Source of the DNA: Bdellovibrionota bacterium
GTDB taxonomy: Bacteria; Bdellovibrionota; UBA1018; UBA923
Direction of reading: 5' to 3'
Length of the DNA: 64,000 bases
Assembly (NCBI GenBank): GCA_040754655.1
Contig: JBFMCE010000002.1
Location: forward strand, 5,777 to 69,776
Shown: one piece after another, positions 15,056-61,962 of the stretch
Layout of the letters: each line of letters begins with the position of its first letter
Numbering within the stretch: position 1 is the first letter of the stretch
Translations under genes and position numbers: made by a program
The notes under the pieces: generated by a model
The model's database searches: none
The model's input: the letters and a program-made list of their open reading frames with translations, nothing else
What the model was told of the DNA's origin: nothing

Positions 15056-15067
15056 GGGGTTACTCCT

Positions 15068-16551: not shown

Positions 16552-16964
16552 TTCATCTCTCTCTATAAAGAGAGATAACTGCAACCTTGGTACCAGCAAA
16601 AACACAACCTAAGTCATTGAAACCATTCGGTGATGTAGGTCTGACACACCCTAAAAACATTGTTCAATGTAAACGCCTTCGACACCCCGAGAGAGCCTCT
16701 TTCGCTATTTAGGATAGTTCCTGTACCGCCACCCGTGGGTGGTGAGTCTCAAAACTTATCGGTTATTTTCTTTTTGCCCAAGCTGACGAAAGTTTCTTAT
16801 CGAGAGTTATGAGTTCAAGATTCAGTTCGTTCGCCAGCCAGAAATAGCTAGCATTTTGCTTATGGAAAGTAGGCACTTTTTTCCTCTCTCATACGGCCAA
16901 ATACGCAAACGTACTCAAGTTATCTCACCCCCCAGCCGAAACGAGTGTTGAGAGAGAATAAATC

Positions 16965-23521: not shown

Positions 23522-24253
23522 TCAAGGCCATTCCAGCTCTGCAAGCAATGCGGCATGGTCTGAAAGGTTCGCCCAGATATCGGAATGCAGGCAGCGCGCC
23601 GCGCGTATTTCAAAACCATGGTAATAAATTCGGTCTAAACGAAGAATCGGCATGCGCGCAGGAAATGTGCGTGCGTGCCTTTTGTGACGGCGGTGATAGG
23701 CTTCTTCCAGGCCCAGCTCCTTCTTGAAGAATTTTGAGAGCCGCAGAGCCCAGTCATTGAAATCACCGGCGACCACCAACCCGTGCCCGAAAGCGACCTT
23801 CTGCTTGATGCGTTCGCAGAGCAATGCCGCTTGCAATTGCCTGTCGCGTTCGAACAATCCGAAATGCACGCACAGCAAATGCATCTCGGGCCGAGACTCA
23901 AAAGGTTTGATCACGGCATGCAAAAGCCCTCGCCTCTCAAGAGAACTCGTAGACACGTCTTGGTTTTCCCAATGCAAGATCGGATATTTGCTTAAGATCG
24001 CATTGCCATGGTGGCCACCTTGGTAAACGGCGTTTTTCCCATACGCAAAATGCGGCCAGATAGAGTCGGCCATGAATTCAAACTGCGGCTCCATCTCGCC
24101 CTGCTTCTCGCCCATGACCTCTTGAAGGAACACCACATCCGGCGAGACCGTACGAATGGCCTCTCGGATCTCGCTCAATACATAGGCGCGATTACGCACG
24201 GTAAAACCCTTGTGGATGTTGTAGGAAAGAATCCTCAAATATTTTGCGCTCAT
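23522..24253 (-). CDS. Endonuclease/exonuclease/phosphatase (EEP) family protein, YbhP-like
   Basis: EEP motifs LSYNIHKG, VVFLQE, GDFND and SDH. The start MSAKYL is reassigned; its ATG overlaps the upstream cls-fusion stop as ATGA. Confidence 0.75.
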   Translation of the reverse strand: MSAKYLRILSYNIHKGFTVRNRAYVLSEIREAIRTVSPDVVFLQEVMGEKQGEMEPQFEFMADSIWPHFAYGKNAVYQGGHHGNAILSKYPILHWENQDVSTSSLERRGLLHAVIKPFESRPEMHLLCVHFGLFERDRQLQAALLCERIKQKVAFGHGLVVAGDFNDWALRLSKFFKKELGLEEAYHRRHKRHARTFPARMPILRLDRIYYHGFEIRAARCLHSDIWANLSDHAALLAELEWP

Positions 24254-30240: not shown

Positions 30241-31722
30241 ATGCCAAAACTGCCATTTTCATTAAGAGCGATTACAATACTGACAACATCATTCTTCGCA
30301 GCGCAAGCCGCCGATGCTTCTTCGATTGTCTTTAAATGCACGGTAAAGAACCAAGACGGCGTGATTTTCCTCGAGGACCACAGCTTTGCAGCACCTTCCA
30401 ATAAACTTCATTTTGAAATTGAAGAAAAATCTTACGCCCTCACCCTACACCAGCCAGCACCAAATACTCCTACGACTCCATTTAAGATGGAAATCCAAGC
30501 GGCGACGGTAGAGCACGGAGAAGGCGTAGACGCTCATGCGGCTGACCGTGACGTTTATCGCATCACCCGGGATGCATCGCAGAAGCCGCTGCTTGAAGCC
30601 ACAATCATAAAAGAAGCGCTCACCGAAGACGGAATCTTTGGCAGTTTTTTCTTGAAGAGCGGCTTGTTTAAGAAAAACCGCTCTATACATGCCTCGTGCA
30701 AACCCCTTGGTTTTGGCAAAAAAGCGCAGAATGACAAAGCGCTAGACGTATTGAAAAAAGGCAATGGCGGCAACCTTGCCGAGCTCATCGAGGTTCTAAA
30801 AGAAGCTAGCCCCATTCATGAAATCTTCGATGAAGACGGACGTCCTCTGCTTCATCTTGCGGCTGAAAAAGAAGGCGCGGCGGTGTTTTCTTTTTTAACG
30901 AAGGTGATGACCCAGCAACCCGCTAGACTAGAAGTTCCTAGCCCAATGGGAGGCGATGCACTTTATCTTATTGCGGCCTTGAAGGAACCTTACCAAAAAG
31001 AAATATACAAGGCTGACCTGCTTATGGATGAGGGAGCGAGAGCGAACCGTATTCAGAAAATCAGGCTTCCAAGTGGCAACTTTTACTATCAAAGCGCTCT
31101 TGAACGAGCCAAAGAGATCCACCCTAAACTAGCTGGCAGTATGGAATGGAGAATTGAAAACCGCTCAACTCATCCGAGCCCTCCAGATCGACTCCATAAA
31201 CAAAAAGGAGAGCTCAATTGTGGAAATGAACCCATTGCGGCTGAGACCAATCCTGACCTTACAGGCGTTTGGAGCGGAGAAGGGCGATGTGAGTGTGCGA
31301 GTGATGGCCTACCTAAGCCTGCGCCACGTGGCATGCGATGTGGCATTAGGCTTGAGCTCTTCAGCACAGGCTCGGAATTCAGCATCGTTGAAGCCGGAGT
31401 TTTTGGTAGCGGCCTAGGGGTCTTTCAACCCGGTGTATCGACCATCAAAGCAGGCAATCGTTTGGTACCGGTTGGTTATCAAATCCCCCAATCTTTCGGA
31501 GAAATGTCTAAGCGCTGGATTTATGATTCGTGCTTCAACTCAAATTCGGTGAAATTGAAGTTTGAACGCTTGACTGAAAACCCAGTTCACCCTGACCTTT
31601 TTCAAGTGATGGAATTTCGTCTGAGCGACGACAAACAGTCGCTTCACTTCGAAGTCAGTCATGGAATTTATTCCTCAAGTTGTTGGGTAGCGGGCACGCT
31701 GTCGAAAAAGACTTCAGACTGA
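30241..31722 (+). CDS. Secreted protein with ankyrin-like repeats
   Basis: Signal peptide MPKLPFSLRAITILTTSFFAAQA. Ankyrin-like segments DGRPLLHLAAEKEGAAVFSFL, GGDALYLIAALKE and LLMDEGARAN. Cys-rich C-terminal region. Confidence 0.55.
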   Translation: MPKLPFSLRAITILTTSFFAAQAADASSIVFKCTVKNQDGVIFLEDHSFAAPSNKLHFEIEEKSYALTLHQPAPNTPTTPFKMEIQAATVEHGEGVDAHAADRDVYRITRDASQKPLLEATIIKEALTEDGIFGSFFLKSGLFKKNRSIHASCKPLGFGKKAQNDKALDVLKKGNGGNLAELIEVLKEASPIHEIFDEDGRPLLHLAAEKEGAAVFSFLTKVMTQQPARLEVPSPMGGDALYLIAALKEPYQKEIYKADLLMDEGARANRIQKIRLPSGNFYYQSALERAKEIHPKLAGSMEWRIENRSTHPSPPDRLHKQKGELNCGNEPIAAETNPDLTGVWSGEGRCECASDGLPKPAPRGMRCGIRLELFSTGSEFSIVEAGVFGSGLGVFQPGVSTIKAGNRLVPVGYQIPQSFGEMSKRWIYDSCFNSNSVKLKFERLTENPVHPDLFQVMEFRLSDDKQSLHFEVSHGIYSSSCWVAGTLSKKTSD

Positions 31723-31728
31723 AGATCG

Positions 31729-33123
31729 TTAAGGAGTCCAAATCCAACGAATCTTTTCGCCTGAAAGATCTTGCACTCCAATACCCCAGACTGCCGGAGC
31801 GCTTGGAGCGGGGCCCTTAGCCCCATCATTGGTCGAGCCGAGCACGATCATCTTGCGAAGCCCTATAATATCGCTCCCATTATTTTCAGATGCGTACTCG
31901 AGCACATGAAGTTCCCACTCACGAATGGCGTTGATTTTCTCACGGGTGTAACCCGCGAGTTTGGCGTTGGGGAGAAGTGCAGGAATTTCTTGACCGTAAA
32001 GCGTTCCTCCGCTCGAGAGCGCTCTAGCGATTTCATCAAAAAAGTGCTGATTGTTTTCTGATACACCCATTCCCTGGACTCCATGGACGGCGTCCTTCAA
32101 CTGGGTAATCTCTGGTTTGACTGCGCCGCTTGAGAAAAGGTCGCGCACTTGTTGACCAAACTCTGAAGAATAAGCAAAGGCGGGTTCTGCGGTCATAATT
32201 TCTTTATTGTGCACAGAAGGGTTGATGTCTTCGATGACAGCGCGCAGATGTTTTTTCAAGTAAGGGACCTTTGGCGCCTCGATTCCCGGAAAAACGTTCG
32301 AATAAATGAGGCGTTTGTCTTTCCAAATAGCGAGCGACGGATCCGCATCGAGCACGTTGTTCGCATAAGCTTCGTTAGCGGTTTGAATGACGATGCCAAT
32401 GATTTCGTACGATGGCAACCCGCCTCCTTCGATGCGAAGAACCGTGCGCTTCAAAGAGCGTCCTTCGGCCTCGCCCAATCCCATGAAGTCCTCTATGACT
32501 TTTTCACGCAAGCTTGAGCTCGAAATACAACCCCAACCACGACAAAGGGTTGGTATCTCGGGCTGATCCAAGAACCTGTCTTTTCCGAGCCAGGTGGAAC
32601 TGCCGAGATGCCAAGTGAGGAGGCCAAGCACGCGTGGTGAATACAACACCATCGCATTGAGATTCACGTTGGGTTCTACCCTACGACGATTTGCAGAAGC
32701 ATGGTTGTGCGAGGGAAGACTATCGATCTTCGCATCGTCGCGAAAAAGGATGTTCAGGCCGCCAAGCTCCGTCGCAATGGGTCTGCCGATACTGTGATGA
32801 TTTACAAGATTCAAAATGGCGGTACGGGCCGTTCGAGGAGTTTCAGATTGAAAGTCTGGAAGATACCGCGCATTTAAGAGTTGAGGAAGCTTCGCGATCG
32901 GCACGACCATGTAAAAGTACGGAAGCCCTGACGCAACAGCGAGGTCGCCCAACTCTTCACGTTCTCGAGCTACCTCGAAACCACCGTACGGATCAAAACC
33001 CGCAGTTTGCGCAAGAAGCTTCTCACAAAGTAAACCACTCTTCTTTTGACCAGCGCCGTGAGTTATTACAGAAGTCAAAATCAGCCCTAAAACAACAAGT
33101 AGTTGAGCGACAAATTTGTTCAT
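31729..33123 (-). CDS. Secreted hypothetical protein (464 aa)
   Basis: Signal peptide MNKFVAQLLVVLGLILTSVITHGA. No family recognised. Convergent with the ankyrin gene. Confidence 0.5.
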   Translation of the reverse strand: MNKFVAQLLVVLGLILTSVITHGAGQKKSGLLCEKLLAQTAGFDPYGGFEVAREREELGDLAVASGLPYFYMVVPIAKLPQLLNARYLPDFQSETPRTARTAILNLVNHHSIGRPIATELGGLNILFRDDAKIDSLPSHNHASANRRRVEPNVNLNAMVLYSPRVLGLLTWHLGSSTWLGKDRFLDQPEIPTLCRGWGCISSSSLREKVIEDFMGLGEAEGRSLKRTVLRIEGGGLPSYEIIGIVIQTANEAYANNVLDADPSLAIWKDKRLIYSNVFPGIEAPKVPYLKKHLRAVIEDINPSVHNKEIMTAEPAFAYSSEFGQQVRDLFSSGAVKPEITQLKDAVHGVQGMGVSENNQHFFDEIARALSSGGTLYGQEIPALLPNAKLAGYTREKINAIREWELHVLEYASENNGSDIIGLRKMIVLGSTNDGAKGPAPSAPAVWGIGVQDLSGEKIRWIWTP

Positions 33124-35725: not shown

Positions 35726-36997
35726 ATGCCCGAACCGATAAAAGCCCGAAACAAGCTGCCCGCCGAGGCTGTGAAGCGGCGGAACGTCGAGCTCGCTCTA
35801 AGCAATGCGGAACAGATTTTTCGATTGCTTGTAGACGCAGTGTCGGACTACGCCATCTTTGCGCTCGATCCCAATGGATACGTGCTCACCTGGAATAGGG
35901 GCGCGGAAAGATTTAAAGGTTACAAGGCTAACGAAATCGTCGGCCAGCATTTCTCGCGCTTTTACATGAGGAGCGACATTGAAAATGGCAAGCCTGACAT
36001 GGAACTCCGGGTCGCTGCCGATGAGGGACGCTACGAAGAAGAAGGGTGGCGCGTTCGAAAGGACGGAAGCCTCTTTTGGGCCAACGTCGTCATCACGGCC
36101 CTGCGCGACCAGAGCGGAGTGCTCCGCGGCTTCGCGAAAGTGACGCGCGACCTTACCGAGCGAAAGCGCGCCGAAGAGAACCTGCAACAACTCAATGAGA
36201 ACCTTGAAAAGAAAGTCCGGGAAAGGACGGAAGATTTGATCAAGGCCGCGGAACGCCTTGAAACAGCCGTGAAGTCTAGAGACGAATTCCTCTCGATCGC
36301 CTCTCATGAGCTCAAGACACCTTTGACCTCGCTTAAACTGCAAGTACAGATGCGAAAGCGCGCCATCGAAAAACAAGGCGCCCAGGCTCCCTTCACTTTG
36401 GAAAGACTCAGACAAATGGTCGAAGACGATGAGAAGCAGATCAATCGGCTCAATCAGCTCGTAGACGACATGCTCGACATCACGCGCATCACAGCCGGCA
36501 AACTCACGCTGCAGACGGAGCTCGTAGACCTGTGCGCGCTCATTCAAGAAGTGACTGATCGCTTTGCCCCTCAGCTTGAAGCTGCGGGTTGCCAGGTTTT
36601 TTTCGATGCCGATTGCAAAGTCGAAGGCCAGTGGGACTTGTACAGAATCGAACAAGTCTTCATCAATTTGCTGACGAATGCCATGAAGTACGGCGCGGGA
36701 AAACCGATTCAAATAAAGGTGAGCGCGGCTGACGGCATCGCGAAACTTGCCGTTCGAGACTATGGCGTGGGGATCGCCGCAGAAGACCACGAGAGAATCT
36801 TCCTGCAATTTGAACGCGCGATATCAGCCAGCGAGGTCAGCGGCCTTGGCCTTGGGCTCTACATCGTCCGTCAAATCGTAGAAGCGCATGGCGGAAGGAT
36901 ACTGCTCGAAAGCAAGCTTGGCGAAGGCTCGCTTTTCAAGGTTGAACTTCCGATCGCAAATGAACCCGCGCGGCGGCAAAGTCATCAGAGCCGCTGA
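35726..36997 (+). CDS. PAS-domain sensor histidine kinase
   Basis: PAS domain (YVLTWNRGAERFKGYKANEIVGQHF), H-box SIASHELKTPLTSL, and HATPase_c N/G boxes (NLLTNAMKYG; GLGLGLYIV). Confidence 0.85.
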   Translation: MPEPIKARNKLPAEAVKRRNVELALSNAEQIFRLLVDAVSDYAIFALDPNGYVLTWNRGAERFKGYKANEIVGQHFSRFYMRSDIENGKPDMELRVAADEGRYEEEGWRVRKDGSLFWANVVITALRDQSGVLRGFAKVTRDLTERKRAEENLQQLNENLEKKVRERTEDLIKAAERLETAVKSRDEFLSIASHELKTPLTSLKLQVQMRKRAIEKQGAQAPFTLERLRQMVEDDEKQINRLNQLVDDMLDITRITAGKLTLQTELVDLCALIQEVTDRFAPQLEAAGCQVFFDADCKVEGQWDLYRIEQVFINLLTNAMKYGAGKPIQIKVSAADGIAKLAVRDYGVGIAAEDHERIFLQFERAISASEVSGLGLGLYIVRQIVEAHGGRILLESKLGEGSLFKVELPIANEPARRQSHQSR

Positions 36998-37006
36998 AAA
37001 AGCCGC

Positions 37007-38728
37007 TCATCCTGAATTCTGGCTTGAGGCCTGGCAAAAGAGTGACGCTCTTTTCTTTTGCATTCGAATCAACAAGGCGCTCAATCCGTACCCGCAAACC
37101 AGCGCCGCGAGATGGTGCAGGCTGAGCCAACTTTGGCGAGCGAAGCATAAAAACAAACCGTTGAGAGCGAATGGCGTGAGCAACAAGCCGGGGCGTTTCA
37201 GCAGAGGCGCGAGCGCGCCCACCACCGCGTACACCGCGTTTGAAGAACCATAATCGATCTCAGCCAAAAATCGATGGAATTGCGAGGATGAATAATATTT
37301 CAGGAAAATGGCATTCAATGCCCACGCGAGAGGATTCGAGAGCCATAAACCGGCGCTGACAACGAGCCCGCAGAATATTGGTCCCAAAACCAACTCCAAC
37401 GCGCCGGCAAAGACCAGGAACGAAACCAGATCCCCTGCGAAATGGTAGTGATTGTTGTGAAACAACGGGGCCAGAAAGTGACCCAAGGCACTGTAAGATC
37501 CGGCCGTGAAGGGATAGAGATCGTAAAGTTCCTGCACCTCGGGAAAAACGTTTCGCGAGACATGAAGCGATGAAAAGAGAACGGCAAAAGACAGGGTGAG
37601 CCTTTGACGGCGAAAGATCTCTGCAACGCTTTCAGGCCATGACTGCAGCTTCACGCTAGGGTTGAGATGGGGCCGCATTTTGCGCGCAAGATAGGTGGCT
37701 GAGGCGTTCATCAGTCCACCGGGGAAATGAACTCGGGCCAACTCAACGACAGTATCGACTCTAAAACCAGGCTTGCTGACTAGAAACAAGGGTTGCCACG
37801 ACGTGGGCTGAAACTTCGCTTTGAACCTATAGACTGATTTGAAGTTCAGCGGAAAACGGAGGTGGTGAAACGCAAAAACCATCAGTCCCACAAATACCCT
37901 CTCTGCTAGACCATGCTCACCTTGGGCTTTCGCGTCCGCGAAAGGACAGAGCCCCAAGCGTACTTCAAGGTAACCTTGATTCAAAAGGATTCTCATCGCC
38001 TCAACGAATAAGAGCTCTACAGTCCCTGGCCTCGCCGCTTGATCGCGAATATAGTCTGCGAAAAAGAAACCCGCTTTCGGGAAAATAGGAACCGCAAACA
38101 AGAAGGCGGTGACTTTGCCTCGATATTCAACCACGAAGAGTTTCTTATGTTCGCTCAAGTGCCATGGGTCGATTTGATTCAAGAATCCCAATGGCACCGT
38201 TGCACGCGAACCGACCCAATTCTCTAAGAGCTGATTCAACTGCGCCTTGAGCCCTTCGTCGTACTCGTTGGCAGAGACCTCTTTGACCACCGCTCCCCTT
38301 CTCAAAAGAGATCTTGCATGTGGAAATCGATCGAGAGGATCTCGAACCCCTGAAAAATACTTCGCCAAATCAAAGAGAGGTTCGCTTCCGATGGGCAGGC
38401 GTTGGTATCCCCGCTCAAGGAGCTTCTCCGAGAACCCTTGAGTGACCGGAGTCATGATCACGGACTTTCGTTGTTCACGAGCGGCTTGATCAAAGCCTTC
38501 GAAGATTGCAGGCCGCTCTTCAAAGCTAGCTAGGGGTTCGGTCGCCGCAACCCAAGCGCGCTTGGTTTCCATGTAACGAATCTGGCCTGCACAAGAATCT
38601 TGAGGACGATAGGTTCTGAAGCCAGGATAACTTGTCATGAATGAACTGGTGCGGTCGCCGAATTGACGCAAATCAGAAAGAAGGTCTTGGTTCGAATTCA
38701 AAGGTTTTGACGAAATTTCGCTATCCAT
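37007..38728 (-). CDS. Fusion protein: N-terminal aminoacyl-phosphatidylglycerol-synthase-C-like (DUF2156-like) domain plus C-terminal rhomboid-family intramembrane protease-like domain
   Basis: N-half segments such as FVVEYRGKVTAFLFAVP and VELLFVEAMRILLNQGYLEVRLGLCPFA resemble the MprF-C/DUF2156 pattern. The C-half has rhomboid-like motifs: HYHFAGDLVSFLVFAGALELVLG (HxxxN/GGAxE region), YGSSNAVYAVVG (GxSG-like) and SLHHLAALVCG (catalytic-His helix). Confidence 0.5.
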   Translation of the reverse strand: MDSEISSKPLNSNQDLLSDLRQFGDRTSSFMTSYPGFRTYRPQDSCAGQIRYMETKRAWVAATEPLASFEERPAIFEGFDQAAREQRKSVIMTPVTQGFSEKLLERGYQRLPIGSEPLFDLAKYFSGVRDPLDRFPHARSLLRRGAVVKEVSANEYDEGLKAQLNQLLENWVGSRATVPLGFLNQIDPWHLSEHKKLFVVEYRGKVTAFLFAVPIFPKAGFFFADYIRDQAARPGTVELLFVEAMRILLNQGYLEVRLGLCPFADAKAQGEHGLAERVFVGLMVFAFHHLRFPLNFKSVYRFKAKFQPTSWQPLFLVSKPGFRVDTVVELARVHFPGGLMNASATYLARKMRPHLNPSVKLQSWPESVAEIFRRQRLTLSFAVLFSSLHVSRNVFPEVQELYDLYPFTAGSYSALGHFLAPLFHNNHYHFAGDLVSFLVFAGALELVLGPIFCGLVVSAGLWLSNPLAWALNAIFLKYYSSSQFHRFLAEIDYGSSNAVYAVVGALAPLLKRPGLLLTPFALNGLFLCFARQSWLSLHHLAALVCGYGLSALLIRMQKKRASLFCQASSQNSG

Positions 38729-38906
38729 GGCGCTTTAGGCACTCTTGCATCCGTGGTCCCGACCTCTATCTTAACGCGGCCAAGCCAACGCTGCCTAAAA
38801 CTTGGCGTTAAGGCTAAAGATTTTGCCGATCTCTTCATCCGCCCGAACTGAGAAAACCTCTAGGCTCGACAAGAAGCGACGCTTCAAGCATTGTTGGCCA
38901 ACATCG

Positions 38907-39656
38907 ATGGAATACAAGGACCTCTTTAGCAAACAAGCTCTCGACTATTCTCGTTTCCGGCCGAAGTACCCTTCCGAGCTCTTCGATTATCTCGCGGGAT
39001 TATGCGCGCAAAGAGAGTCTGCATGGGATTGCGGCACCGGCAACGGACAGGCTGCGGTTGAGCTGGCGAGAAGGTTCCACAAGGTGTTCGCAACGGACCC
39101 AAGCGCCAAACAAATTTCAAATGCGACGCCTTTAAAGAACATCGAATACAGGAAAACGACGGCCGAAGACTCTAAACTCGCTGATCATAGCAGTGATCTC
39201 ATTACCGCTGCTCAGGCGTTTCACTGGTTTGGCCACGAGAGGTTTTACGCTGAAGTACGCCGAGTAACGCGCGGCCAAGGGGTGCTCGCTCTCTGGTGTT
39301 ACGGGCTGCACAAGATCTGTTCCCAAGTGGATCAGACGATTTTAAAACTGTATCAAGACATCCTGGGGAACTACTGGGAAAAAGAAAGAAGAATGGTGGA
39401 AGACGGCTACCGAAGCATCGCCGTGCCTTTTGAAGAGATTACGCCGCCGCGCTTTCTCATGAGAGCGACCTGGTCGATTGAAGATTTACTGGGATATCTC
39501 GGCACTTGGTCTGCCCTGCAAAGTTATGTTTCGCGAAACGGACAGGATCCGCGTGACGAAATCGCTGAGGATCTCAAAAGAGCGTGGGGAGAAACCGCGA
39601 CACGTGAAATCCGATGGGACATCAACCTTCGAGTCTTTCGCGTGAACCCTCAATAA
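38907..39656 (+). CDS. Class I SAM-dependent methyltransferase (Methyltransf_11-like)
   Basis: Motif I AWDCGTGNGQAAVELA. Starts at an internal ATG (MEYKDL) because the track start is TTG. Confidence 0.65.
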   Translation: MEYKDLFSKQALDYSRFRPKYPSELFDYLAGLCAQRESAWDCGTGNGQAAVELARRFHKVFATDPSAKQISNATPLKNIEYRKTTAEDSKLADHSSDLITAAQAFHWFGHERFYAEVRRVTRGQGVLALWCYGLHKICSQVDQTILKLYQDILGNYWEKERRMVEDGYRSIAVPFEEITPPRFLMRATWSIEDLLGYLGTWSALQSYVSRNGQDPRDEIAEDLKRAWGETATREIRWDINLRVFRVNPQ

Positions 39657-42079
39657 AAAGGCAGTGACACAGTGAAAACCGACCCCTTGCCGAGTTCACT
39701 TTCCACTGCAATTGTTCCTCCGTGCAATTCGACAATCTGTTTGCTGATGTAGAGCCCGAGACCGAGGCCGCTGATGCGGCCTGTTGAGAGCGCACGTTCA
39801 TAGCGCTTGAAGATGCGCTCGAGGTCTTCATTCGCGATGCCCAGACCGTGGTCTTTGACCGAAATCCGGGCGTTGGTTTCGTCTAAACTGACTTGCACTT
39901 CAATAGGAGTGCCCGCCCCATACTTGATGGCGTTTGAAATCAGATTCGCCACTACTTGTTCGATCCGAGCCCTGTCCCATCGCCCTTGAACCGCCCCATC
40001 AAACAAGACCCGGCACTGGCATCCGGCAAACCGCAAGGGTTCCGAAAAACGTTCGACAACTTCTTGAACCACTTCAACCAGGTCAATATATTCACGTTCG
40101 ATCGGCAATTTGCCATGCTCAAGCCTCGAGATATCAAGCATGTCTTCAACGAGCCGAGTGATTCGATCCACCTGTTTATCGACCGAAGAAATGAAACGCT
40201 CTAAGTGCGTGACGTCAGTGGCCAGCGGCTCCCTTCGTTTCAGTCGACGCATCTGCACTTCAGCCTGCAGTTTCATCGAGGTGATCGGGGTTTTCAGCTC
40301 ATGGCTTGCAATGGAAAGGAATTCATCTCTTGCGCGCACTGCCTCGCGCAGATCTTCTTCCAGCTTCTTCCTCTGGCTCATGTCCCGGTTGATGATTGAA
40401 AAGCCCTTGAGAGCTCCTGATTCCTCATAAAGCGCGGTCAAAACCATGCTCGCCCAAAAACGATTTCCGAACTTGCAAACCCGCCAGCCTTCTTCTTCGT
40501 ACTTGCCCTGCCTTGCCGCGATTTCAAGGTGTTGATCTGGCCTACCTTCTCCGCGCGCCTCTTTCGGATAAAAAACAGAAAAATGCTGCCCAATAATCTC
40601 TTCAGCCTTGTAAGCCTTCAACCGTTCAGCGCCTTCATTCCAAGTTGCGACGTAACCATTGCGATCAAGAAGGAAAATAGCGTAATCCTTCACCCCTTGA
40701 ATCAGCGACCGAAACCTCTCTTCGCTTTCGTGCACAGCCCGCTCGGCGAGTACACGATCGGTCACGTCGTCATGGATCAAGACGACTTCGATCACTTCTC
40801 CCTTATGGTTCTTGACCGGATAAGCGAGCGCCTCGATCCAGCGCGACCTTCCGGGATTGCCGTTTTCGCTCGGGTCATAAAGCGACGCCGGAATTTTCAC
40901 GAATTCCCCTTGAAAAGCCCGTTTCAGGTAAGACGCCACGCCTTTTGCTTTAAGTTGCGGGTCTTCAAGGATGTTGTATTCACGAAAAATGTAATCAGCG
41001 ATGAAGCTTTCCGGTAAACAGAAGAGCTTCTTCCAGCCTGCGTTCACGCCTCGAGTGAAACCCTCGGGGCTCAGCAACTGTATGCTGAGCGGAGCTTGCT
41101 CAAACAATGCTCTGAAACGGTTCTCGGAAGACCGCACGCGTTCTTCCGCGTTTTTCCGTTCCATAAACAAACCAATTTGCCCGCCAAGAGTCAAAAGGGT
41201 CTTCAAAAGCGATTCGTTTCGATCAAAATGGCGCTGGCTGAAGAAATCAATCACACCAGTGATCTTTCCTGACGCCGTGATCGGAAACCCAACCCCTCCA
41301 TGCAATCCTTCTGAGCGAGCGACGCGGCCCCTCGGATAGACGAAGTCTTTACTGATGTCTTGCACCCACTCGGGTTGTCCTTTTTGCCAAACCAGACCCG
41401 GCAGGCCCTCGCCTTTCCTCAGCCGAGCGTTCCGAGTGGCCTCAAGAAACAAGGGGGCGGATACTTTATTTGAATTCCAAGTATAAAAGGGCCTGAGCGT
41501 CTGCAAGTTCGGATCGACAACCCAGAGCGTGCCGATATCCCATTCCAATGTTTTTCCAATCGACTCAAGAATGCGAGGGGTCGCTTCTTCAAGCGAAAGC
41601 TCTTCAACCAGAGCAGTCATCACCCCGTACTGCACGCCGAGGTTCTGCGTCGCCTCAAGAAGCAATCTCTCGGCATTCTTGCGTTCAGTGATATCGCGAA
41701 TGAAAGAGTAAAACAGATGCCCGCTTTCCAACGATATTGGGATGATCGCCAGCTCGATCTCGATTCGTTTTCCATTGCGATGCAAGGCGGGCACTTCAAC
41801 TCTTTTATTTAAAAGAGGACCTATGTTTTCTTCGAGAAAACGTTTCATTCCTTGAATGTGTCGCTGCCGATATTCGGGTGGGATAATGAGATCCTGTAAC
41901 TTTCTTCCAATGGCCTCAGCTTTCGTCCAACCAAACGTAAGCTCTGCTTCATGATTCCAGTCAATGATTGTATGGTTCTGATCAATACCCACTACTGCAT
42001 CTAAGGCGTTCTCAAGAACGACTTTGCGCCAAGGATCCAGGGTAACGGTCGGACGGTGGCTACGGCTAATGATGGGCAT
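39650..42079 (-). CDS. Multi-sensor (PAS-GAF-PAS-PAS) histidine kinase
   Basis: Repeated PAS signatures, a GAF-like segment, H-box SIASHELKTPITSM, and HATPase_c (NLISNAIKYG; GLGLGLYISKQIVELHGG). Confidence 0.85.
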   Translation of the reverse strand: MPIISRSHRPTVTLDPWRKVVLENALDAVVGIDQNHTIIDWNHEAELTFGWTKAEAIGRKLQDLIIPPEYRQRHIQGMKRFLEENIGPLLNKRVEVPALHRNGKRIEIELAIIPISLESGHLFYSFIRDITERKNAERLLLEATQNLGVQYGVMTALVEELSLEEATPRILESIGKTLEWDIGTLWVVDPNLQTLRPFYTWNSNKVSAPLFLEATRNARLRKGEGLPGLVWQKGQPEWVQDISKDFVYPRGRVARSEGLHGGVGFPITASGKITGVIDFFSQRHFDRNESLLKTLLTLGGQIGLFMERKNAEERVRSSENRFRALFEQAPLSIQLLSPEGFTRGVNAGWKKLFCLPESFIADYIFREYNILEDPQLKAKGVASYLKRAFQGEFVKIPASLYDPSENGNPGRSRWIEALAYPVKNHKGEVIEVVLIHDDVTDRVLAERAVHESEERFRSLIQGVKDYAIFLLDRNGYVATWNEGAERLKAYKAEEIIGQHFSVFYPKEARGEGRPDQHLEIAARQGKYEEEGWRVCKFGNRFWASMVLTALYEESGALKGFSIINRDMSQRKKLEEDLREAVRARDEFLSIASHELKTPITSMKLQAEVQMRRLKRREPLATDVTHLERFISSVDKQVDRITRLVEDMLDISRLEHGKLPIEREYIDLVEVVQEVVERFSEPLRFAGCQCRVLFDGAVQGRWDRARIEQVVANLISNAIKYGAGTPIEVQVSLDETNARISVKDHGLGIANEDLERIFKRYERALSTGRISGLGLGLYISKQIVELHGGTIAVESELGKGSVFTVSLPFY

Positions 42080-42124: not shown

Positions 42125-42622
42125 TTAACGAACTGCAAGGGGTCGCGCTTTTTCTTGCCACCGCTTCGGGTCGTGCCAAAGGTCTGCTAGAGCCTCTCGC
42201 ACCCTTTCTCGAACATTGTCATAAGAATGTTGAGCCACATCTTTATTGAGGCTACCAACCACACGACCTAAAAGATTTGGGCTGAAACCCGCTTTGAGTT
42301 TACCCATAACCCTCGGCCCAGCAATCAAGAAAAGCTCATCAAAATTCTGCTGGCCTGCTTGAGAGAGTAGCCACTGCTCAACTTCTCTTACGAATACATC
42401 GACCTCATGGTCGCGCGCATCCTGAGGAGAGCTAAAAGCATGGCGTACGTTGCCAAGGCTGGCGAAAGTTCTACCGGGTCGATCCGTCGTCAGGTCGCGT
42501 TCTCGCATCCGAGCAGCTGAATGCCGAATGATATGCACTTGCCGCGGCCCATCCTCGGGGCCGGTGCATTCGTAAATTGTCGCTTCACTTTGGTTTGCTA
42601 CAATCACCCAGACTCTGCTCAT
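42125..42622 (-). CDS. Host-attachment-protein family protein
   Basis: The pattern W.IVAN...A.IYE...DRPGR...F.ELFLIAGPR.MGKL...KD matches the family pattern. Start reassigned to MSRVWVIV. Confidence 0.6.
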   Translation of the reverse strand: MSRVWVIVANQSEATIYECTGPEDGPRQVHIIRHSAARMRERDLTTDRPGRTFASLGNVRHAFSSPQDARDHEVDVFVREVEQWLLSQAGQQNFDELFLIAGPRVMGKLKAGFSPNLLGRVVGSLNKDVAQHSYDNVRERVREALADLWHDPKRWQEKARPLAVR

Positions 42623-42758
42623 CGTGACCTCACGGGAAGAACGAAATGCAATTCTCTCGCCACGAACCTCACCCAACATTTTCTCAGACGTTCAAGGCAT
42701 GACACTTGCATCGATGGCTGCGCACTTGAAGTCAAACCTTTTACAGGAGAGAAATGAG

Positions 42759-46227: not shown

Positions 46228-46295
46228 CTCAGCCGGTTATAAGAATCGCCCTCCCCTTCCGATAAGAAAGAGAAGGGGTGCGCTTCGTGCCGACC

Positions 46296-47492
46296 ATGTT
46301 TTGGGGTTTAAGAAAATTAAGACTGGAACTTGCTCTTGCGACCGTCGTCGCATGCGGCATTTTGTGCCCACTGGCTTGGTCATCGAAAGTCGATCCCCCC
46401 TTATGCATGACATCCGCACTCCATTCAACCCGCAAATCTTTGCTCAGTGATGCCATCGGCAAGCTAGCCAGGCTTAAGATGAAAGAAGAGCGCACACGCA
46501 TTCGCGCAGAGCTTGAGCGATCGAAGTTCGAGCGAGCGATGCAGCAGCCTGATCGGAAAGATATCGCAAGGCTACTTGAACCCCTGAGTGAAGCGCAAAA
46601 AGCGGAAACAGCCGCGGCAAAAGAGTTTGACGACACGGTGAATGAGATCGCTCACCTTGCCGACGTGCTCTTGAAAGACATGCAAAGCTCGCAAGAAGCA
46701 GGAATGATCACGGTCTTCATCAGAAAAAATCTCGAGGACGGAAACCCCGTTCCCGTGACCGGCCGATACATCGGCCTGAGCGATTCCAAACCTCGGCGTT
46801 GCCGGATGGAAGTGCAAAAGGAAGACGGAACCCCTAAAGCAATTTCTTTTCACCCTTCCCTTCTCTCGCTTGAAGCGGCGCACTTCACCGGCGAGCGATA
46901 TCCAGAGCTTGCATTGCCTGATCCTAGCGGCGCTACCCAGCTGCCTGACGTTGTCGCGGAAAAAGCACGGGCCGCTCGCGAGCAAAAGCAGCGCAATGAG
47001 CCAAGGGCAAAACACTTCATTGTGGATGATGAAGCGGCCGAACCGGATGCTGAGCACACCAAGGTCAATCGCCCCTCTGTGCTGATTGCAGAGCCGCCAA
47101 AGCCCGCCGCTCCGATTCGCAATGAACAAGATTTCAAGAAGGCCTCTAGAAGCGCCGCTACCGTCGCAGAGAGGCCTAATCCGCAGGCCGAAATTCCTAA
47201 ACGCCTCGACACAATGGTCATGCGAGTAAGACAACGACCACCTCGGCCCGCAGCGCTTTCACAAAAATCGGTTGAGGACCTCTTTGCGAAAGCACGAGCT
47301 CAAAACAAGGATGGAAAAGGATTGCATGCTTTTCAACTGAAAACAGGCGAAAAAATTGTGGCAGAGACCTTGGTACGCGAAGGCCATGTCTTGATTCTTT
47401 TAAAGAACGTCGCGAGAAGTCCACAAATTCCTTCGATCCGAAGGATCGATTTCCAGGAAATTGACTTCTCAAAACCTATTTTATTTGAATGA
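46296..47492 (+). CDS. Hypothetical exported protein
   Basis: Signal peptide or anchor MFWGLRKLRLELALATVVACGILCPLAWS. Charged, Pro/Ala-rich middle region. The track start is an upstream GTG at 46278. Confidence 0.45.
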   Translation: MFWGLRKLRLELALATVVACGILCPLAWSSKVDPPLCMTSALHSTRKSLLSDAIGKLARLKMKEERTRIRAELERSKFERAMQQPDRKDIARLLEPLSEAQKAETAAAKEFDDTVNEIAHLADVLLKDMQSSQEAGMITVFIRKNLEDGNPVPVTGRYIGLSDSKPRRCRMEVQKEDGTPKAISFHPSLLSLEAAHFTGERYPELALPDPSGATQLPDVVAEKARAAREQKQRNEPRAKHFIVDDEAAEPDAEHTKVNRPSVLIAEPPKPAAPIRNEQDFKKASRSAATVAERPNPQAEIPKRLDTMVMRVRQRPPRPAALSQKSVEDLFAKARAQNKDGKGLHAFQLKTGEKIVAETLVREGHVLILLKNVARSPQIPSIRRIDFQEIDFSKPILFE

Positions 47493-47498
47493 CCTCTC

Positions 47499-49193
47499 TT
47501 ATTGCGCTGCTTGGGAACAAACGCTCGGATCAAGCTTTTGTCCAATTTCATAAATCCTGAAATTGGCATTTTGAAATGCCAATCCATAACGGCATCGAAA
47601 ATAGGCCTCATCGGCCCGAAATTCGCGCAATTCAGAGGGGCCGATCGCGACATACTTGATTTGGTGCAAGCTTAAGAGTCGTTCGGTATCAGGCGCGCCG
47701 CGGAATATACTTTCAATCTCACGGGCGCGTTGCTGATAATCAAACCCGTAGTTGTTCACCCAACCCGGGTACCCCATCAAGACCGGACGCACTGCCCACA
47801 TCATGATGGGATGGTTGTGAATGGTCGCGGTAAGAAAAACGTCCGTTGGCCGGGTCTTCTCGCGGATCTCTTTCGACAAACGGATATCAGCGTCGTCACT
47901 CAAACGAAATGTATGGCGTTCGACCCGGGCGAGCCTGTACACTTCAAGAACTCCGGTGAGCGTCAGGCACAAAAGAACGATCACTGAACTCGATTTCAAA
48001 CCCCAATGCGGGTGACTGAACCCGCGCGCAAGCATCGAGGCCGCCACGACTGAGAAACCAAAGTAAGACCAGAAGAAGAGTTTTGAGTTGTCCCAATCGG
48101 TGGGTTGAAAAAGAATAATATTCGCGAGCGCAAAGGTAAGGAACAAACCCAGAATCAAGAGCCTCGAATGCCGAGAAGGTTGGTTTTTGAAATAGAAAAC
48201 CAGCCCTACGAGCGCTACCGGCGCCATCAAACCCCAGATCCTCAACCACATCGCCATCCAGTCCAAAAAACCGCCTTTGACGGTCCATCCCCAGAAAATC
48301 TTCATGAAATTTGAATTGGCGATCCCGCCTGAGATGAACTTCAAATAAAGCATGAGCGCCAGCGCGCCAGCGGGTACTGCGCACCACAACCATGCTCTCC
48401 AGAAACGCAAGTTCCCTAGACATGCCAAAACGAGGCCCGGTGCGATTGCGATCAGGCTGTGCACATGAATCACGGGCAATGCACCCAATAAAATCGCGGA
48501 AGACAGGAAACGCCTCTTGGCTGACCGAGGCCGAGCCTTAAGCAAATCAAAGCCCCTTAAAAACAAAAACAGAGCCCAACTTGAGACCGTCATTCCAAGC
48601 AAGCCCGCGCGTTGAGGCACGAGGATAGCGACCAAGACATTGCCAGCCAACCACGAATAACCCTCGATGCGCGTGTAATCTTTCGGGGGATAGGCGATCA
48701 AATCCCAACTGAAACTCTGTGATGCATGCCTGACAAAATCAAAAAAACCCAGCCCAGACGAGAGAAGAAAGATCGAAATCGCAAGAAAGGCCTGCCAGCC
48801 CGAATTCAAAAGCCTTCGGCACAAGAAATAGAATCCGCACAAACATCCGATCGCGTAAAGGATCGAACTCAACTTCATCGCGCTGGGCAAATCAAGGCCC
48901 AACCGCATCAACAGCCCCGGAATCAGGTTCGTGACGAAGGGATAGGTGAATTTCCCCCCTGCATACATCGGATGGTAGGCGAACCACTGACTGGGCTCTT
49001 TGAGAGCAAAGATATTCGCCATGCCAATGTGAAGCGCCCAATCTGACCAGACGTTTTCATGGCCCACGTACAACCCATCGTCCTTAAACCCAATGATCCG
49101 TGCAAAAAGCAAAACAAGATACGCTCCCCAACTGCAGAGTAAGAGGAAAAGCGGCGCATGTTCTTGCTTGAGGATTCGTTTTAAGCTGAACAT
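47499..49193 (-). CDS. GT-C fold polytopic membrane glycosyltransferase-like protein (ArnT/PMT-like)
   Basis: 564 aa with more than 12 TM segments and a periplasmic C-terminal region. Divergent from the PMT-like gene. Confidence 0.45.
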   Translation of the reverse strand: MFSLKRILKQEHAPLFLLLCSWGAYLVLLFARIIGFKDDGLYVGHENVWSDWALHIGMANIFALKEPSQWFAYHPMYAGGKFTYPFVTNLIPGLLMRLGLDLPSAMKLSSILYAIGCLCGFYFLCRRLLNSGWQAFLAISIFLLSSGLGFFDFVRHASQSFSWDLIAYPPKDYTRIEGYSWLAGNVLVAILVPQRAGLLGMTVSSWALFLFLRGFDLLKARPRSAKRRFLSSAILLGALPVIHVHSLIAIAPGLVLACLGNLRFWRAWLWCAVPAGALALMLYLKFISGGIANSNFMKIFWGWTVKGGFLDWMAMWLRIWGLMAPVALVGLVFYFKNQPSRHSRLLILGLFLTFALANIILFQPTDWDNSKLFFWSYFGFSVVAASMLARGFSHPHWGLKSSSVIVLLCLTLTGVLEVYRLARVERHTFRLSDDADIRLSKEIREKTRPTDVFLTATIHNHPIMMWAVRPVLMGYPGWVNNYGFDYQQRAREIESIFRGAPDTERLLSLHQIKYVAIGPSELREFRADEAYFRCRYGLAFQNANFRIYEIGQKLDPSVCSQAAQ

Positions 49194-61752: not shown

Positions 61753-61962
61753 ATGAATAAGACCGGTCAAAAACAAACAGGCGTCGATGCGAGGTCGCTG
61801 AAACAAGCGGCCCACGATCTAGGTTCGCCTGTCGCCGCGCTCAAGATGCTTTGCAAAAACGCGCGCGCCCTGACCGATGAAGAAAGGCAGATTCTCCAGG
61901 GTTCAATTGAAAGAATTGAGATCGTGGCGAGGAAACTGAGCGAATATGCGAAAAACAAATAA
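61753..61962 (+). CDS. Small ORF with a histidine-kinase H-box-like motif (standalone DHp-like peptide?)
   Basis: AAHDLGSPVAALKML resembles the HisKA phospho-His helix. 69 aa, overlapping the next gene by 17 nt. It may not be expressed. Confidence 0.3.
   Translation: MNKTGQKQTGVDARSLKQAAHDLGSPVAALKMLCKNARALTDEERQILQGSIERIEIVARKLSEYAKNK

What the first reader, a model, noticed from the sequence alone, without database searches (positions are those of the whole stretch)
37007..38728. Unusual fusion: aminoacyl-phosphatidylglycerol-synthase-C-like domain plus rhomboid intramembrane protease domain
The 573-aa protein has a soluble N-terminal ~330 aa. Its segments (FVVEYRGKVTAFLFAVP..., VELLFVEAMRILLNQGYLEVRLGLCPFA) resemble the GNAT-like DUF2156 / MprF C-terminal aminoacyl-PG synthase domain. 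The C-terminal ~240 aa is polytopic and carries rhomboid-like hallmarks. These are a GGAxE-like loop (FAGALELVLG), a GxSG-like catalytic serine context (YGSSNAVYAVVG) and the catalytic-His helix (SLHHLAALVCG). In MprF the synthase domain is fused to a flippase. I know of no described fusion of this domain to a rhomboid protease. The window also contains a Cls-YbhN fusion and a ceramidase, so the region may carry a membrane-lipid remodelling theme.
Basis: partly seen in the sequence, partly recalled or inferred. Interest (0 to 1): 0.6.

Follow-up and report, generated by a model that had tools for sequence, protein, structure and literature searches.

The report
Lipid aminoacyl-synthase fused to rhomboid hydrolase
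This gene really does join a cytoplasmic MprF-type lipid-aminoacylating enzyme to a six-helix rhomboid-type Ser/His membrane hydrolase. It belongs to an unstudied family of about 170 sequence clusters in which this kind of rhomboid occurs almost only as such a fusion, which gives a testable clue to what a bacterial rhomboid does.

Summary
The 573-aa ORF (37007..38728, minus strand) is real and both domain calls hold.

- **N-terminal domain (residues 20-317):** an MprF/LpiA-type aminoacyl-phosphatidylglycerol synthase domain. Pfam PF09924 E=1.4e-26; AF2 model TM-score 0.80-0.85 to solved L-PGS, A-PGS and LpiA.
- **C-terminal domain (residues ~373-556):** a six-TM rhomboid fold. This protein is sub-threshold in Pfam (E=0.06). 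However, 42/48 close relatives hit PF01694, distant relatives score above the gathering threshold, and the AF2 model (pLDDT 96.7) matches only GlpG structures.
- **Catalytic residues:** the GlpG S201/H254 equivalents (S496, H539) are each kept in 171/172 representative domains. The pocket is altered: no WR motif, N154→D, G202→N, A253→H, plus clade-specific invariant D492 and N465.
- **Architecture:** an exhaustive search of 1.84 billion proteins finds only 176 relatives of this rhomboid domain, nearly all fused to the synthase domain. They occur in Bdellovibrionota, Myxococcota, Desulfobacterota and Nitrospirae.
- **Context and literature:** no conserved neighbours, and no paper describing the fusion.

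Best reading: a self-contained MprF analogue in which a catalytically intact rhomboid replaces the flippase and probably acts on the aminoacyl-lipid. A classical protease role is not excluded. The "lipid-remodelling neighbourhood" idea is not supported.

The parts
37007..38728 (-). Complete ORF, 573 aa, two-domain membrane protein. It sits between a convergent and a divergent gene, so it is probably monocistronic.
37778..38671 (-). Residues 20-317: aminoacyl-phosphatidylglycerol-synthase-type tandem-GNAT domain (PF09924 / DUF2156), predicted cytoplasmic.
   Evidence: Pfam E=1.4e-26. PDB sequence hits to LpiA, MprF, L-PGS and A-PGS. Foldseek TMt 0.80-0.85 to 4v36, 5vrv, 6lv0 and 4v35.
38045..38056 (-). 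D225-Y-I-R228: the DxxR motif shared with solved aaPGS domains.
   Evidence: Aligned to D..R in 5vrv, 6lv0, 7f47 and 4v36. D/E in 127/127 and R in 115/127 representatives.
37796..37825 (-). F302-K-A-K-F-Q-P-T-S-W311: the FKxKFxPxW motif shared with MprF synthases.
   Evidence: K303 in 126/127, K305 in 120/127, P308 in 125/127.
37613..37777 (-). Residues 318-372: helical linker (helices 324-334, 339-354, 368-374). It carries the near-invariant H334 and a basic stretch before TM1.
37061..37612 (-). Residues 373-556: six-TM rhomboid-fold domain, predicted N-in/C-in, with the active site facing the periplasm.
   Evidence: AF2 pLDDT 96.7. The top 34 Foldseek PDB hits are all GlpG, TM-score 0.62-0.72. 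Profile hit to 2nr9 at E=6e-4. Positive-inside count.
37430..37459 (-). TM2 motif H424-NNHY-H429-FAG-D433, equivalent to GlpG H145-x4-H150-x3-N154.
   Evidence: H424 in 171/172, H429 in 165/172, position 433 is N in 90 and D in 82.
37217..37255 (-). TM4 motif D492-Y-G494-S-S496-N497-A-V-Y500-A-V-V-G504. S496 (codon 37241..37243) is the putative nucleophile, equivalent to GlpG S201. D492 is a clade-specific invariant.
   Evidence: G494 in 172/172, S496 in 171/172, D492 in 171/172. Same G-x-S-x3-Y-x3-G spacing as GlpG G199..G209.
37091..37117 (-). TM6 motif H538-H539-LAALVC-G546. H539 is the putative general base, equivalent to GlpG H254, and G546 matches G261.
   Evidence: H539 in 171/172, G546 in 171/172. 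Position 538 is never A or G (H 87, N 60, D 13, Q 7, S 5).
37331..37336 (-). N465-P466 in TM3, a clade-specific conserved polar pair.
   Evidence: N465 in 164/172, P466 in 134/172.

Best explanation
The gene encodes a self-contained, two-module inner-membrane enzyme that is an analogue of MprF.

Module 1 (residues about 20-335, cytoplasmic) is an aminoacyl-tRNA-dependent lipid aminoacyl-transferase of the MprF/LpiA synthase type. It would charge phosphatidylglycerol, or a related lipid, at the inner leaflet.

Module 2 (residues about 373-556) takes the place of the MprF flippase. It is a six-TM rhomboid-fold domain with an intact Ser496/His539 dyad facing the periplasm.

Shown: both folds, the topology, the near-absolute conservation of the catalytic constellations of both domains, and the almost obligate fusion.

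Inferred:
(i) Both domains are active.
(ii) The rhomboid module anchors the synthase at a thinned patch of bilayer, which is a general rhomboid property.
(iii) Its re-tooled Ser/His site acts on the product of module 1, hydrolysing or transferring the aminoacyl ester of the lipid at the outer leaflet. That would build into one polypeptide the synthase-plus-periplasmic-hydrolase logic known from the lpiA-acvB and PA0920-PA0919 (VirJ) operons and the aaPGS-ahyD operon.
For: Domain identities.

The synthase core motifs shared with solved aaPGS domains are almost invariant over 127 representatives: G114 and G259 in 127/127, D/E225 in 127/127, K303 in 126/127, P65 in 126/127, W171 in 124/127.

The rhomboid dyad and oxyanion-hole residues are almost invariant over 172 representatives that go down to about 20% identity: S496 171, H539 171, H424 171, H429 165, position 433 always N or D. 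That argues for catalysis and against a dead scaffold.

The pocket differs systematically from peptide-cleaving rhomboids. WR is absent. The residue before the catalytic His is never A or G. G202 is replaced by N or L. D492 and N465 are new invariants.

The rhomboid clade is tiny and almost always fused. There are 176 hits in 1.84e9 proteins. Of the 186 C-domain proteins analysed, 144 (127 full-length plus 17 N-truncated) carry the synthase domain, and most of the rest are fragments.

There is no conserved neighbouring gene that could encode a dedicated protein substrate.

Topology is N-in/C-in by the positive-inside rule, supported by a relative that carries a C-terminal GGDEF domain.

The synthase domain needs a membrane domain to work in vivo (PMC8131360). 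aaPGS genes are habitually paired with structurally unrelated periplasmic Ser-type aa-PG hydrolases (PMC6103681). The rhomboid fold thins bilayers, and GlpG binds PE and PG tightly (PMC12615303).
Against: No rhomboid is known to act on a lipid, and every characterised catalytically intact rhomboid is a protease. An intact Ser/His dyad fits proteolysis just as well. Synthesis inside plus hydrolysis outside looks wasteful unless it serves homeostasis or transfer. I could not read model coordinates, so the Ser-His distance, the pocket geometry and the orientation of the synthase lipid tunnel relative to the TM2/TM5 gate were not measured. The amino-acid and lipid specificities are unknown. The co-variation between synthase and rhomboid subfamily residues can be explained by shared phylogeny alone.
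Confidence: 0.42

Rival explanations
1. Classical bifunctional protein. The rhomboid module is an ordinary intramembrane serine protease that cleaves an unknown transmembrane protein. The synthase domain works independently, using the rhomboid only as a membrane anchor, or it regulates or is regulated by proteolysis, as the cytosolic N-domains of GlpG and YqgP modulate their proteases.
For: Rhomboid fold. A GxSx serine, the TM6 histidine, HxxxxHxxx(N/D), the Y205 equivalent and the E166 equivalent are all conserved. All characterised active rhomboids are proteases (PMC12615303). Other bacterial rhomboids carry cytoplasmic N-terminal domains.
Against: This does not explain why this rhomboid clade exists almost only as a fusion with DUF2156. 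It also does not explain why the pocket residues next to Ser and His are systematically non-canonical (position 538 is never A/G, WR is absent, D492 and N465 are new invariants). No candidate substrate gene is conserved nearby.
Confidence: 0.33
2. Non-catalytic membrane module. The rhomboid fold serves only as an anchor and a bilayer-thinning or lipid-scrambling device that replaces the MprF flippase. The Ser/His residues are kept for structural reasons.
For: The MprF membrane domain is a flippase or scramblase, and the synthase needs a membrane partner (PMC11980842 listed). Rhomboid folds, including pseudoproteases, thin membranes.
Against: 171/172 conservation of both Ser496 and His539, together with H424, H429, N/D433 and G494, over very divergent sequences is the signature of an active site. 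Known rhomboid pseudoproteases have lost these residues. No scramblase activity has been reported for rhomboids: the 2025 review contains no occurrence of 'scrambl'.
Confidence: 0.1
3. The N-domain is not a lipid synthase here. Instead it aminoacylates a peptide or protein, in the manner of FemX or L/F-transferase. One possibility is that it tags the cytoplasmic fragment produced by rhomboid cleavage.
For: The tandem-GNAT aa-tRNA transferase superfamily includes protein- and peptide-directed enzymes, and FemX and Sbb17 appear as weaker structural hits (PMC6103681).
Against: The domain is far closer to aaPGS than to Fem enzymes (TMt 0.80-0.85 against 0.53-0.59). It also keeps the aaPGS-specific motifs FKxKFxPxW, DxxR and LGxxP.
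Confidence: 0.08
4. Artefact: a chimeric assembly or a frameshift has joined two separate genes.
For: The window comes from a metagenome-assembled genome.
Against: 127 full-length two-domain representatives come from independent assemblies, including MAGs assigned to cultured species (Desulforapulum autotrophicum, Desulfosudis oleivorans, Desulfocicer vacuolatum). The AF2 full-length model has pTM 0.88.
Confidence: 0.01

Closest known systems
MprF / LpiA (bifunctional aminoacyl-PG synthase-flippase; solved: 7duw, 6lvf, 7f47, 9goe; soluble domains 4v36, 4v34/35, 5vrv, 6lv0)
   Same: Same tandem-GNAT synthase domain, with a Pfam PF09924 hit, TM-score 0.80-0.85 and shared (D/E)P, GxE, W, FxL, DxxR, LGxxP and FKxKFxPxW motifs. 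Same logic of a cytoplasmic synthase covalently tied to a polytopic membrane domain.
   Different: The domain order is reversed, with the synthase N-terminal. The membrane domain is a 6-TM rhomboid fold with a Ser/His dyad, not the 14-TM PF03706 flippase. The NCBIfam MprF equivalog scores 67 bits against a 600-bit cut-off and matches only the synthase part. This subfamily has R257 where the solved synthases have the N of the 'NLGMAP' motif.
GlpG-type rhomboid intramembrane serine proteases (E. coli 2ic8/2irv, H. influenzae 2nr9; Pfam PF01694, MEROPS S54)
   Same: Six-TM fold aligned over about 190 columns. Equivalents of H145, H150, N154 (as D), E166, G170, G199, S201, Y205, G209, H254 and G261. 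N-in/C-in topology with a cytoplasmic N-terminal domain.
   Different: 16-19% identity. No WR motif (G416 stands in place of R137). GSSN replaces GLSG, HH replaces AH, and D replaces N154. D492, N465 and H389 are extra invariants. The N-terminal domain is an enzyme of about 330 aa. Substrate unknown.
aaPGS plus aa-PG hydrolase operon pairs (lpiA-acvB/atvA in Agrobacterium and Rhizobium, PA0920-PA0919 (VirJ-type) in P. aeruginosa, mprF2-ahyD in Enterococcus, PesT)
   Same: A cytoplasmic synthase is genetically coupled to a Ser-type hydrolase that acts on the periplasmic or outer face. This is the functional model proposed here.
   Different: Those hydrolases are soluble or anchored alpha/beta or VirJ-type proteins encoded by separate genes. 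Here the candidate hydrolase is an unrelated intramembrane rhomboid fold fused in cis, and its activity on lipids is only inferred.
Other DUF2156 fusions: LysX (LysRS-MprF, mycobacteria and Corynebacterium) and fungal ErdS (AspRS-DUF2156)
   Same: They show that the DUF2156 transferase domain is modular and is recruited into fusions with the partner that supplies or handles its substrate.
   Different: The partner there is an aminoacyl-tRNA synthetase on the substrate-supply side. Here it is a membrane hydrolase on the product side.

Membership tests
aaPGS synthase domain (PF09924 LPG_synthase_C / DUF2156) | Pfam profile match above the gathering score | tested here: met
   93.7 bits against 27.5, E=1.4e-26, residues 20-317 covering 4-297/298 of the profile. 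48/48 relatives hit it.
aaPGS synthase domain (PF09924 LPG_synthase_C / DUF2156) | Tandem-GNAT fold superposable on solved L-PGS and A-PGS | tested here: met
   AF2 pLDDT 94.1. Foldseek hits 4v36, 5vrv, 6lv0 and 4v35 at E about 1e-16 with TMt 0.77-0.85. FemX is weaker at 0.52-0.57.
aaPGS synthase domain (PF09924 LPG_synthase_C / DUF2156) | Conservation of core motifs shared by the solved synthases ((D/E)P, GxE, W, FxL, DxxR, LGxxP, FKxKFxPxW) | tested here: met
   Identities in the HMMER alignments to 5vrv, 6lv0, 7f47, 6lvf and 4v36. 90-100% conservation over 127 representatives. I could not retrieve the mutagenesis papers, so which of these residues are catalytic rests on the review's statement about an Arg and on memory.
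aaPGS synthase domain (PF09924 LPG_synthase_C / DUF2156) | aa-tRNA-dependent aminoacylation of PG or another lipid | not testable with these tools
   Requires lipid analysis or an enzyme assay.
Bifunctional MprF (NCBIfam NF033480) | N-terminal PF03706-type flippase domain plus C-terminal synthase; equivalog score of at least 600 bits | tested here: not met
   67 bits. Only model positions 523-827/841 (the synthase part) match. No PF03706 hit.
Rhomboid family (PF01694, MEROPS S54) | Pfam profile match above the gathering score | tested here: not met
   This protein scores 14 bits against 22.6 (E=0.06), although the match covers 8-137/143 of the profile. At family level 42/48 relatives hit at E<=1 (best 2.3e-7). 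Eight of ten distant same-architecture proteins scored above gathering at 26.6-42.4 bits, one just below at 22.2, and one had no hit.
Rhomboid family (PF01694, MEROPS S54) | Six-TM rhomboid core fold | tested here: met
   C-domain AF2 model pLDDT 96.7, pTM 0.91. Foldseek PDB ranks 1-34 are all GlpG, TMq 0.50-0.67, TMt 0.57-0.72, about 190 aligned columns, and iRhoms come next. Profile hit to 2nr9 at E=6e-4.
Active rhomboid protease | GxSx motif with the catalytic Ser at the top of TM4 | tested here: met
   G494-S-S496-N. G in 172/172 and S in 171/172. Criterion taken from PMC12615303.
Active rhomboid protease | (A/G)H motif with the catalytic His in TM6 | tested here: inconclusive
   H539 aligns to GlpG H254 and is present in 171/172. 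The preceding residue is H here and is never A or G in 172 representatives.
Active rhomboid protease | TM2 HxxxxHxxxN (oxyanion-hole residues H150 and N154 of GlpG; numbering from memory, checked against the sequence) | tested here: inconclusive
   H424 and H429 are present. N154 is replaced by D433 in this subfamily. Over the whole clade the position is N in 90 and D in 82.
Active rhomboid protease | WR motif in loop L1 (present in about 80% of rhomboids) | tested here: not met
   The position aligned to R137 is G416 (G 89, A 22, S 9, R 8 of 172), and no Trp precedes it.
Active rhomboid protease | Ser-His within hydrogen-bonding distance in a periplasm-facing cavity | not testable with these tools
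   Model coordinates are not exposed to the scripting tool. Only global superposition statistics are available.
Active rhomboid protease | Cleavage of a peptide bond in a transmembrane substrate | not testable with these tools
   Needs biochemistry.
Known aa-PG hydrolases (VirJ/AcvB, AhyD, PesT) | Sequence homology to the VirJ or alpha/beta-hydrolase families | tested here: not met
   Only PF09924 and PF01694 are found at E<=10. The resemblance is one of operon or fusion logic only.

The most novel reading that the evidence does not exclude
This clade of rhomboids is not a protease at all. It would be the first intramembrane Ser/His hydrolase or transacylase with a lipid substrate. It would take the aminoacyl ester made by its own fused synthase, after the lipid crosses the rhomboid-thinned bilayer. 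It would then either hydrolyse the ester (built-in homeostasis) or pass the aminoacyl group to a periplasmic or outer-membrane acceptor, so that the aminoacyl-lipid acts as a trans-membrane carrier, analogous in logic to the Dlt D-alanylation pathway.
Probability: 0.3. Interest if true: 0.85.

Novelty: new variant of a known kind. Interest (0 to 1): 0.62.

Why it matters
The physiological roles of bacterial rhomboids are still largely unknown, and every known active rhomboid cleaves proteins. Here a whole rhomboid clade, with an intact dyad and a re-tooled pocket, is welded to a lipid-aminoacylating enzyme. That points to a specific pathway that can be tested directly by expressing wild type and S496A/H539A mutants in E. 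coli and analysing the lipids.

For the lipid-aminoacylation field it is a third way of embedding the synthase in the membrane, alongside MprF and LysX. It occurs in predatory and sulfate-reducing Gram-negative lineages where aminoacyl-lipids have hardly been studied. It may also reveal how such lipids are translocated or turned over without an MprF flippase or an AcvB-type hydrolase.

Tried and rejected
1. **Gene neighbourhood.** I annotated ±6 kb in the window, three metagenomic homologue loci, and clustered all ORFs of 30 genome loci plus the window. The only recurring neighbours are local synteny among Desulfovibrionaceae. A 5-locus cluster was made of antisense ORFs overlapping the target gene. 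No partner or substrate gene emerged.

2. **Split-gene test.** Stand-alone relatives of about 225 aa (P0092, P0095, P0099) each have a same-strand upstream gene of 186-322 aa. These upstream genes are not DUF2156 (Pfam and hhalign) and are not related to each other. This was a dead end.

3. **Sequence-only comparison with PDB.** It reaches GlpG only over TM1-TM3.

5. **Literature.** No paper contains both 'rhomboid' and 'DUF2156'. Searches combining rhomboid with MprF, aaPGS or lysyltransferase found only incidental co-mentions. The aaPGS structure and mutagenesis paper (PNAS 2015) and the Kinch & Grishin 2013 rhomboid survey are not held. An earlier passing mention of this architecture therefore cannot be excluded.

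6. **'Lipid theme' of the window.** The PLD/Cls-like protein has no PF03706 hit, only a weak VTT-like match. No ceramidase was found among the ORFs scanned (not exhaustive).

7. **Co-variation.** Rhomboid pocket type tracks synthase residues R26, R51 and R257 strongly (69/7 against 3/57). I do not count this as evidence of coupling, because it is what two old clades would show anyway.
Full report
**Observation.** An ATG-initiated ORF of 573 codons lies at exactly 37007..38728 on the minus strand. The gene sits between a convergent PAS histidine-kinase gene (35726..36997, +) and a divergent methyltransferase gene (38802..39656, +), so it is probably transcribed alone. The identical protein is in NCBI as 'phosphatidylglycerol lysyltransferase domain-containing protein' from a Bdellovibrionota MAG.

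**N-terminal domain.**
- Pfam PF09924 (LPG_synthase_C/DUF2156) matches residues 20-317 at E=1.4e-26, covering 4-297 of 298 profile positions.
- NCBIfam finds only the synthase part of the MprF equivalog, at 67 bits against a cut-off of 600.
- phmmer against PDB sequences finds LpiA/MprF synthase domains (5vrv, 6lv0, 7f47, 6lvf) and the L-PGS and A-PGS crystal structures (4v36, 4v34).
- A full-length AF2 model built on 48 family members has mean pLDDT 94.1 and pTM 0.88. Its best PDB matches are these same synthase domains (E about 1e-16, target-normalised TM-score 0.77-0.85). FemX-type transferases are clearly weaker.
- The residues that this protein shares with all aligned solved synthases are E64-P65, G114-x-E116, W171, F182-L183, D225-x-x-R228, G235, L258-G259-x-x-P262 and F302-K303-x-K305-F-x-P308-x-x-W311. 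They are 90-100% conserved across 127 full-length representatives of the wider family.
- The domain therefore looks like a functional aa-tRNA-dependent transferase of the lipid-directed (aaPGS) type. The catalytic role of individual residues could not be checked against the primary mutagenesis literature, which is not held. The review PMC6103681 states that an Arg contacting the alpha-carbonyl is proposed to act in catalysis.

**C-terminal domain.**
- For this single sequence PF01694 (Rhomboid) is below threshold (E=0.06, 14 bits against 22.6), although the match spans 8-137 of 143 profile positions.
- At family level the assignment is solid. 42 of 48 close relatives hit PF01694, best E=2.3e-7.
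- A profile of the C-domains finds H. influenzae GlpG at E=6e-4.
- Of ten more distant same-architecture proteins scanned, eight score above the Pfam gathering threshold at 26.6-42.4 bits, one is just below at 22.2 bits, and one has no Rhomboid hit.
- An AF2 model of residues 372-573 has pLDDT 96.7 and pTM 0.91 with six TM helices. Its 34 best Foldseek matches in the PDB are all GlpG rhomboid proteases (TM-score 0.50-0.72, about 190 aligned columns), followed by iRhoms.

**Alignment to GlpG.** I aligned a family HMM locally to E. coli GlpG. The correspondences are:

| This protein | GlpG |
|---|---|
| H424 | H145 |
| H429 | H150 |
| D433 | N154 |
| E445 | E166 |
| G449 | G170 |
| H538-H539 | A253-H254 |
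| G546 | G261 |

The TM4 motif G494-S-S496-N-A-V-Y500-A-V-V-G504 has the same spacing as G199-L-S201-G-V-V-Y205-A-L-M-G209.

**Topology.** Predicted cytoplasmic segments (pre-TM1, L2, L4 and the C-tail) carry on average 8.4 Lys+Arg in about 39 residues. Predicted periplasmic loops (L1, L3 and L5) carry 3.4 in about 57 residues. This is the N-in/C-in topology of GlpG. It places the synthase in the cytoplasm, where aa-tRNA is available, and the Ser/His site on the periplasmic side. One relative carries an additional C-terminal GGDEF domain, which must be cytoplasmic, and this agrees with an even number of TM helices.

**The family.**
- An exhaustive HMMER search of 1.84 billion representative proteins with the C-domain profile returns only 176 proteins at E<=1e-3, of which 57 are at E<=1e-30. 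The very large population of canonical rhomboids is not retrieved.
- Of 186 proteins with this domain that I could analyse, 127 have a complete synthase domain in front of it and 17 are N-terminally truncated versions of the same architecture. Most of the 42 'C only' entries are short gene fragments. About ten look like genuine stand-alone proteins of about 225 aa.
- Over 172 essentially complete C-domains the conservation is: S496 171, H539 171, H424 171, H429 165, G494 172, E445 170, G546 171. Position 433 is always N (90) or D (82). Conservation of this kind down to about 20% identity argues for a working active site.
- The clade also departs consistently from the criteria listed for active rhomboid proteases in PMC12615303. 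The WR motif is absent, with G416 in place of R137. The residue before the catalytic His is never A or G (H 87, N 60, D 13, Q 7, S 5). There are clade-specific invariants: D492, four residues before the nucleophile (171/172), and N465 in TM3 (164/172).
- Two subfamilies exist. The window protein belongs to 'Hx4Hx3D / G(S/T)SN / HH'. The other is 'Hx4Hx3N / GxSL / (N/D)H'. Rhomboid pocket type tracks subfamily-specific synthase residues (R26, R51, R257; 69/7 against 3/57). This shows that the fusion is old and has not been shuffled, but it is not independent evidence for coupling.

**Distribution and context.** A scan of one genome per species found 30 loci:
- Bdellovibrionota: Bacteriovoracaceae, Bacteriovorax, Oligoflexia.
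- Myxococcota: Bradymonadia, Myxococcales.
- Desulfobacterota: Desulfovibrio, Humidesulfovibrio, Desulfocurvus, Desulfosudis oleivorans, Desulforapulum autotrophicum, Desulfocicer vacuolatum, Syntrophaceae.
- Nitrospirae.

Neighbouring genes are not conserved beyond close relatives. The unit of function is therefore the fusion protein itself.

**How it most likely works.**

Shown: two folds, both with conserved catalytic constellations; the topology; the near-obligate fusion; the absence of a conserved partner.

From established knowledge:
- The MprF synthase domain is inactive in vivo without a membrane domain that positions it at the bilayer (PMC8131360).
- The MprF membrane domain handles the product lipid.
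- aaPGS genes are typically co-transcribed with structurally unrelated Ser-type hydrolases that deacylate aa-PG on the periplasmic side, namely VirJ/AcvB, AhyD and PesT (PMC6103681).
- Rhomboid folds thin the bilayer, and GlpG binds PE and PG tightly (PMC12615303).

Inference: the synthase aminoacylates PG, or a related lipid, at the inner leaflet. The rhomboid module anchors it and, with a pocket re-tooled away from the peptide-cleaving consensus, acts on the aminoacyl-lipid at the outer leaflet by hydrolysis or acyl transfer. I give this about 0.4.

The main rival (about 0.33) is that the rhomboid is a conventional intramembrane protease with an unknown protein substrate. A purely structural or scramblase role is unlikely given the conservation of the dyad. 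A peptide-directed N-domain is unlikely given its aaPGS-specific motifs. An assembly artefact is excluded.

**Comparison and novelty.** The protein is a member of the aaPGS synthase-domain family. It is not an MprF, because it has no PF03706 flippase and fails the equivalog cut-off. Its C-domain belongs to the rhomboid superfamily by fold and by dyad. It fails or only partly meets three of the sequence criteria of canonical active rhomboid proteases: WR, (A/G)H, and N154 in this subfamily. Automated annotations call such proteins 'phosphatidylglycerol lysyltransferase domain-containing', 'DUF2156 domain-containing', 'hypothetical' or 'membrane associated rhomboid family serine protease'. None names both domains. 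I found no paper that mentions the combination. The Kinch & Grishin 2013 survey could not be read. I rate it as a new variant of known kinds: an uncharacterised, phylogenetically broad domain architecture with a distinctive rhomboid subfamily.

**Side claim.** The window does not show a coherent lipid-remodelling neighbourhood around the gene.

Noticed in passing
window 24250..26346 (-) and 23522..24409 (-): A 698-aa PLD/cardiolipin-synthase-like protein has two PLDc motifs and a C-terminal membrane region of about 300 aa. That region gives only a weak, sub-threshold VTT/DedA-like hit (PF09335, E=0.0037) and no PF03706/YbhN hit. It is followed by an Exo_endo_phos (YbhP-like) gene, an arrangement that recalls the E. 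coli ybhP-clsB-ybhN cluster (from memory). A PLD plus VTT-like fusion could itself be worth a look.
   Followed up: partly
window 35726..36997 (+) and 39650..42079 (-): The two PAS histidine kinases flanking the target gene share a nearly identical PAS stretch (DYAIF.LD.NGYV.TWN.GAER.K.YKA.EI.GQHFS.FY), so they are paralogues in opposite orientation on either side of the gene.
   Followed up: no
window 14273..16605 (-): Three consecutive ORFs of 255-260 aa (14273..15055, 15068..15841, 15838..16605) have no Pfam match. They may be tandem paralogues of unknown function.
   Followed up: no
P0154 (776 aa), P0161 (880 aa), P0187 (820 aa); relatives, not in the window: Some distant family members extend the architecture. 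P0154 is LPG_synthase_C + Rhomboid + a C-terminal GGDEF domain. P0161 (Bdellovibrionales MAG, OFZ83406.1) and P0187 have long unannotated C-terminal extensions. This hints at a regulatory or signalling link.
   Followed up: partly
P0077, P0092, P0095, P0099, P0101 (loci L036-L040): These are stand-alone proteins of about 225 aa from the same rhomboid clade, with Hx4Hx3N, GASN and QH motifs. Each has a same-strand gene immediately upstream, abutting in L036. Those upstream genes are neither DUF2156 nor related to each other.
   Followed up: yes
window 30241..31722 (+), 31729..33123 (-), 46278..47492 (+), 47499..49193 (-), 12957..14162 (-): Five large ORFs of 401-564 aa have no Pfam family at the thresholds used.
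   Followed up: no
window 42125..42679 (-): A Host_attach / baeRF family 12 protein (a release-factor-like family) is encoded next to the large PAS/GAF histidine kinase.
   Followed up: no
window 16965..17975 (+) and 61946..62875 (+): Two AmiA-like N-acetylmuramoyl-L-alanine amidase family genes lie in one 64-kb window, which fits a predatory Bdellovibrionota lifestyle.
   Followed up: no
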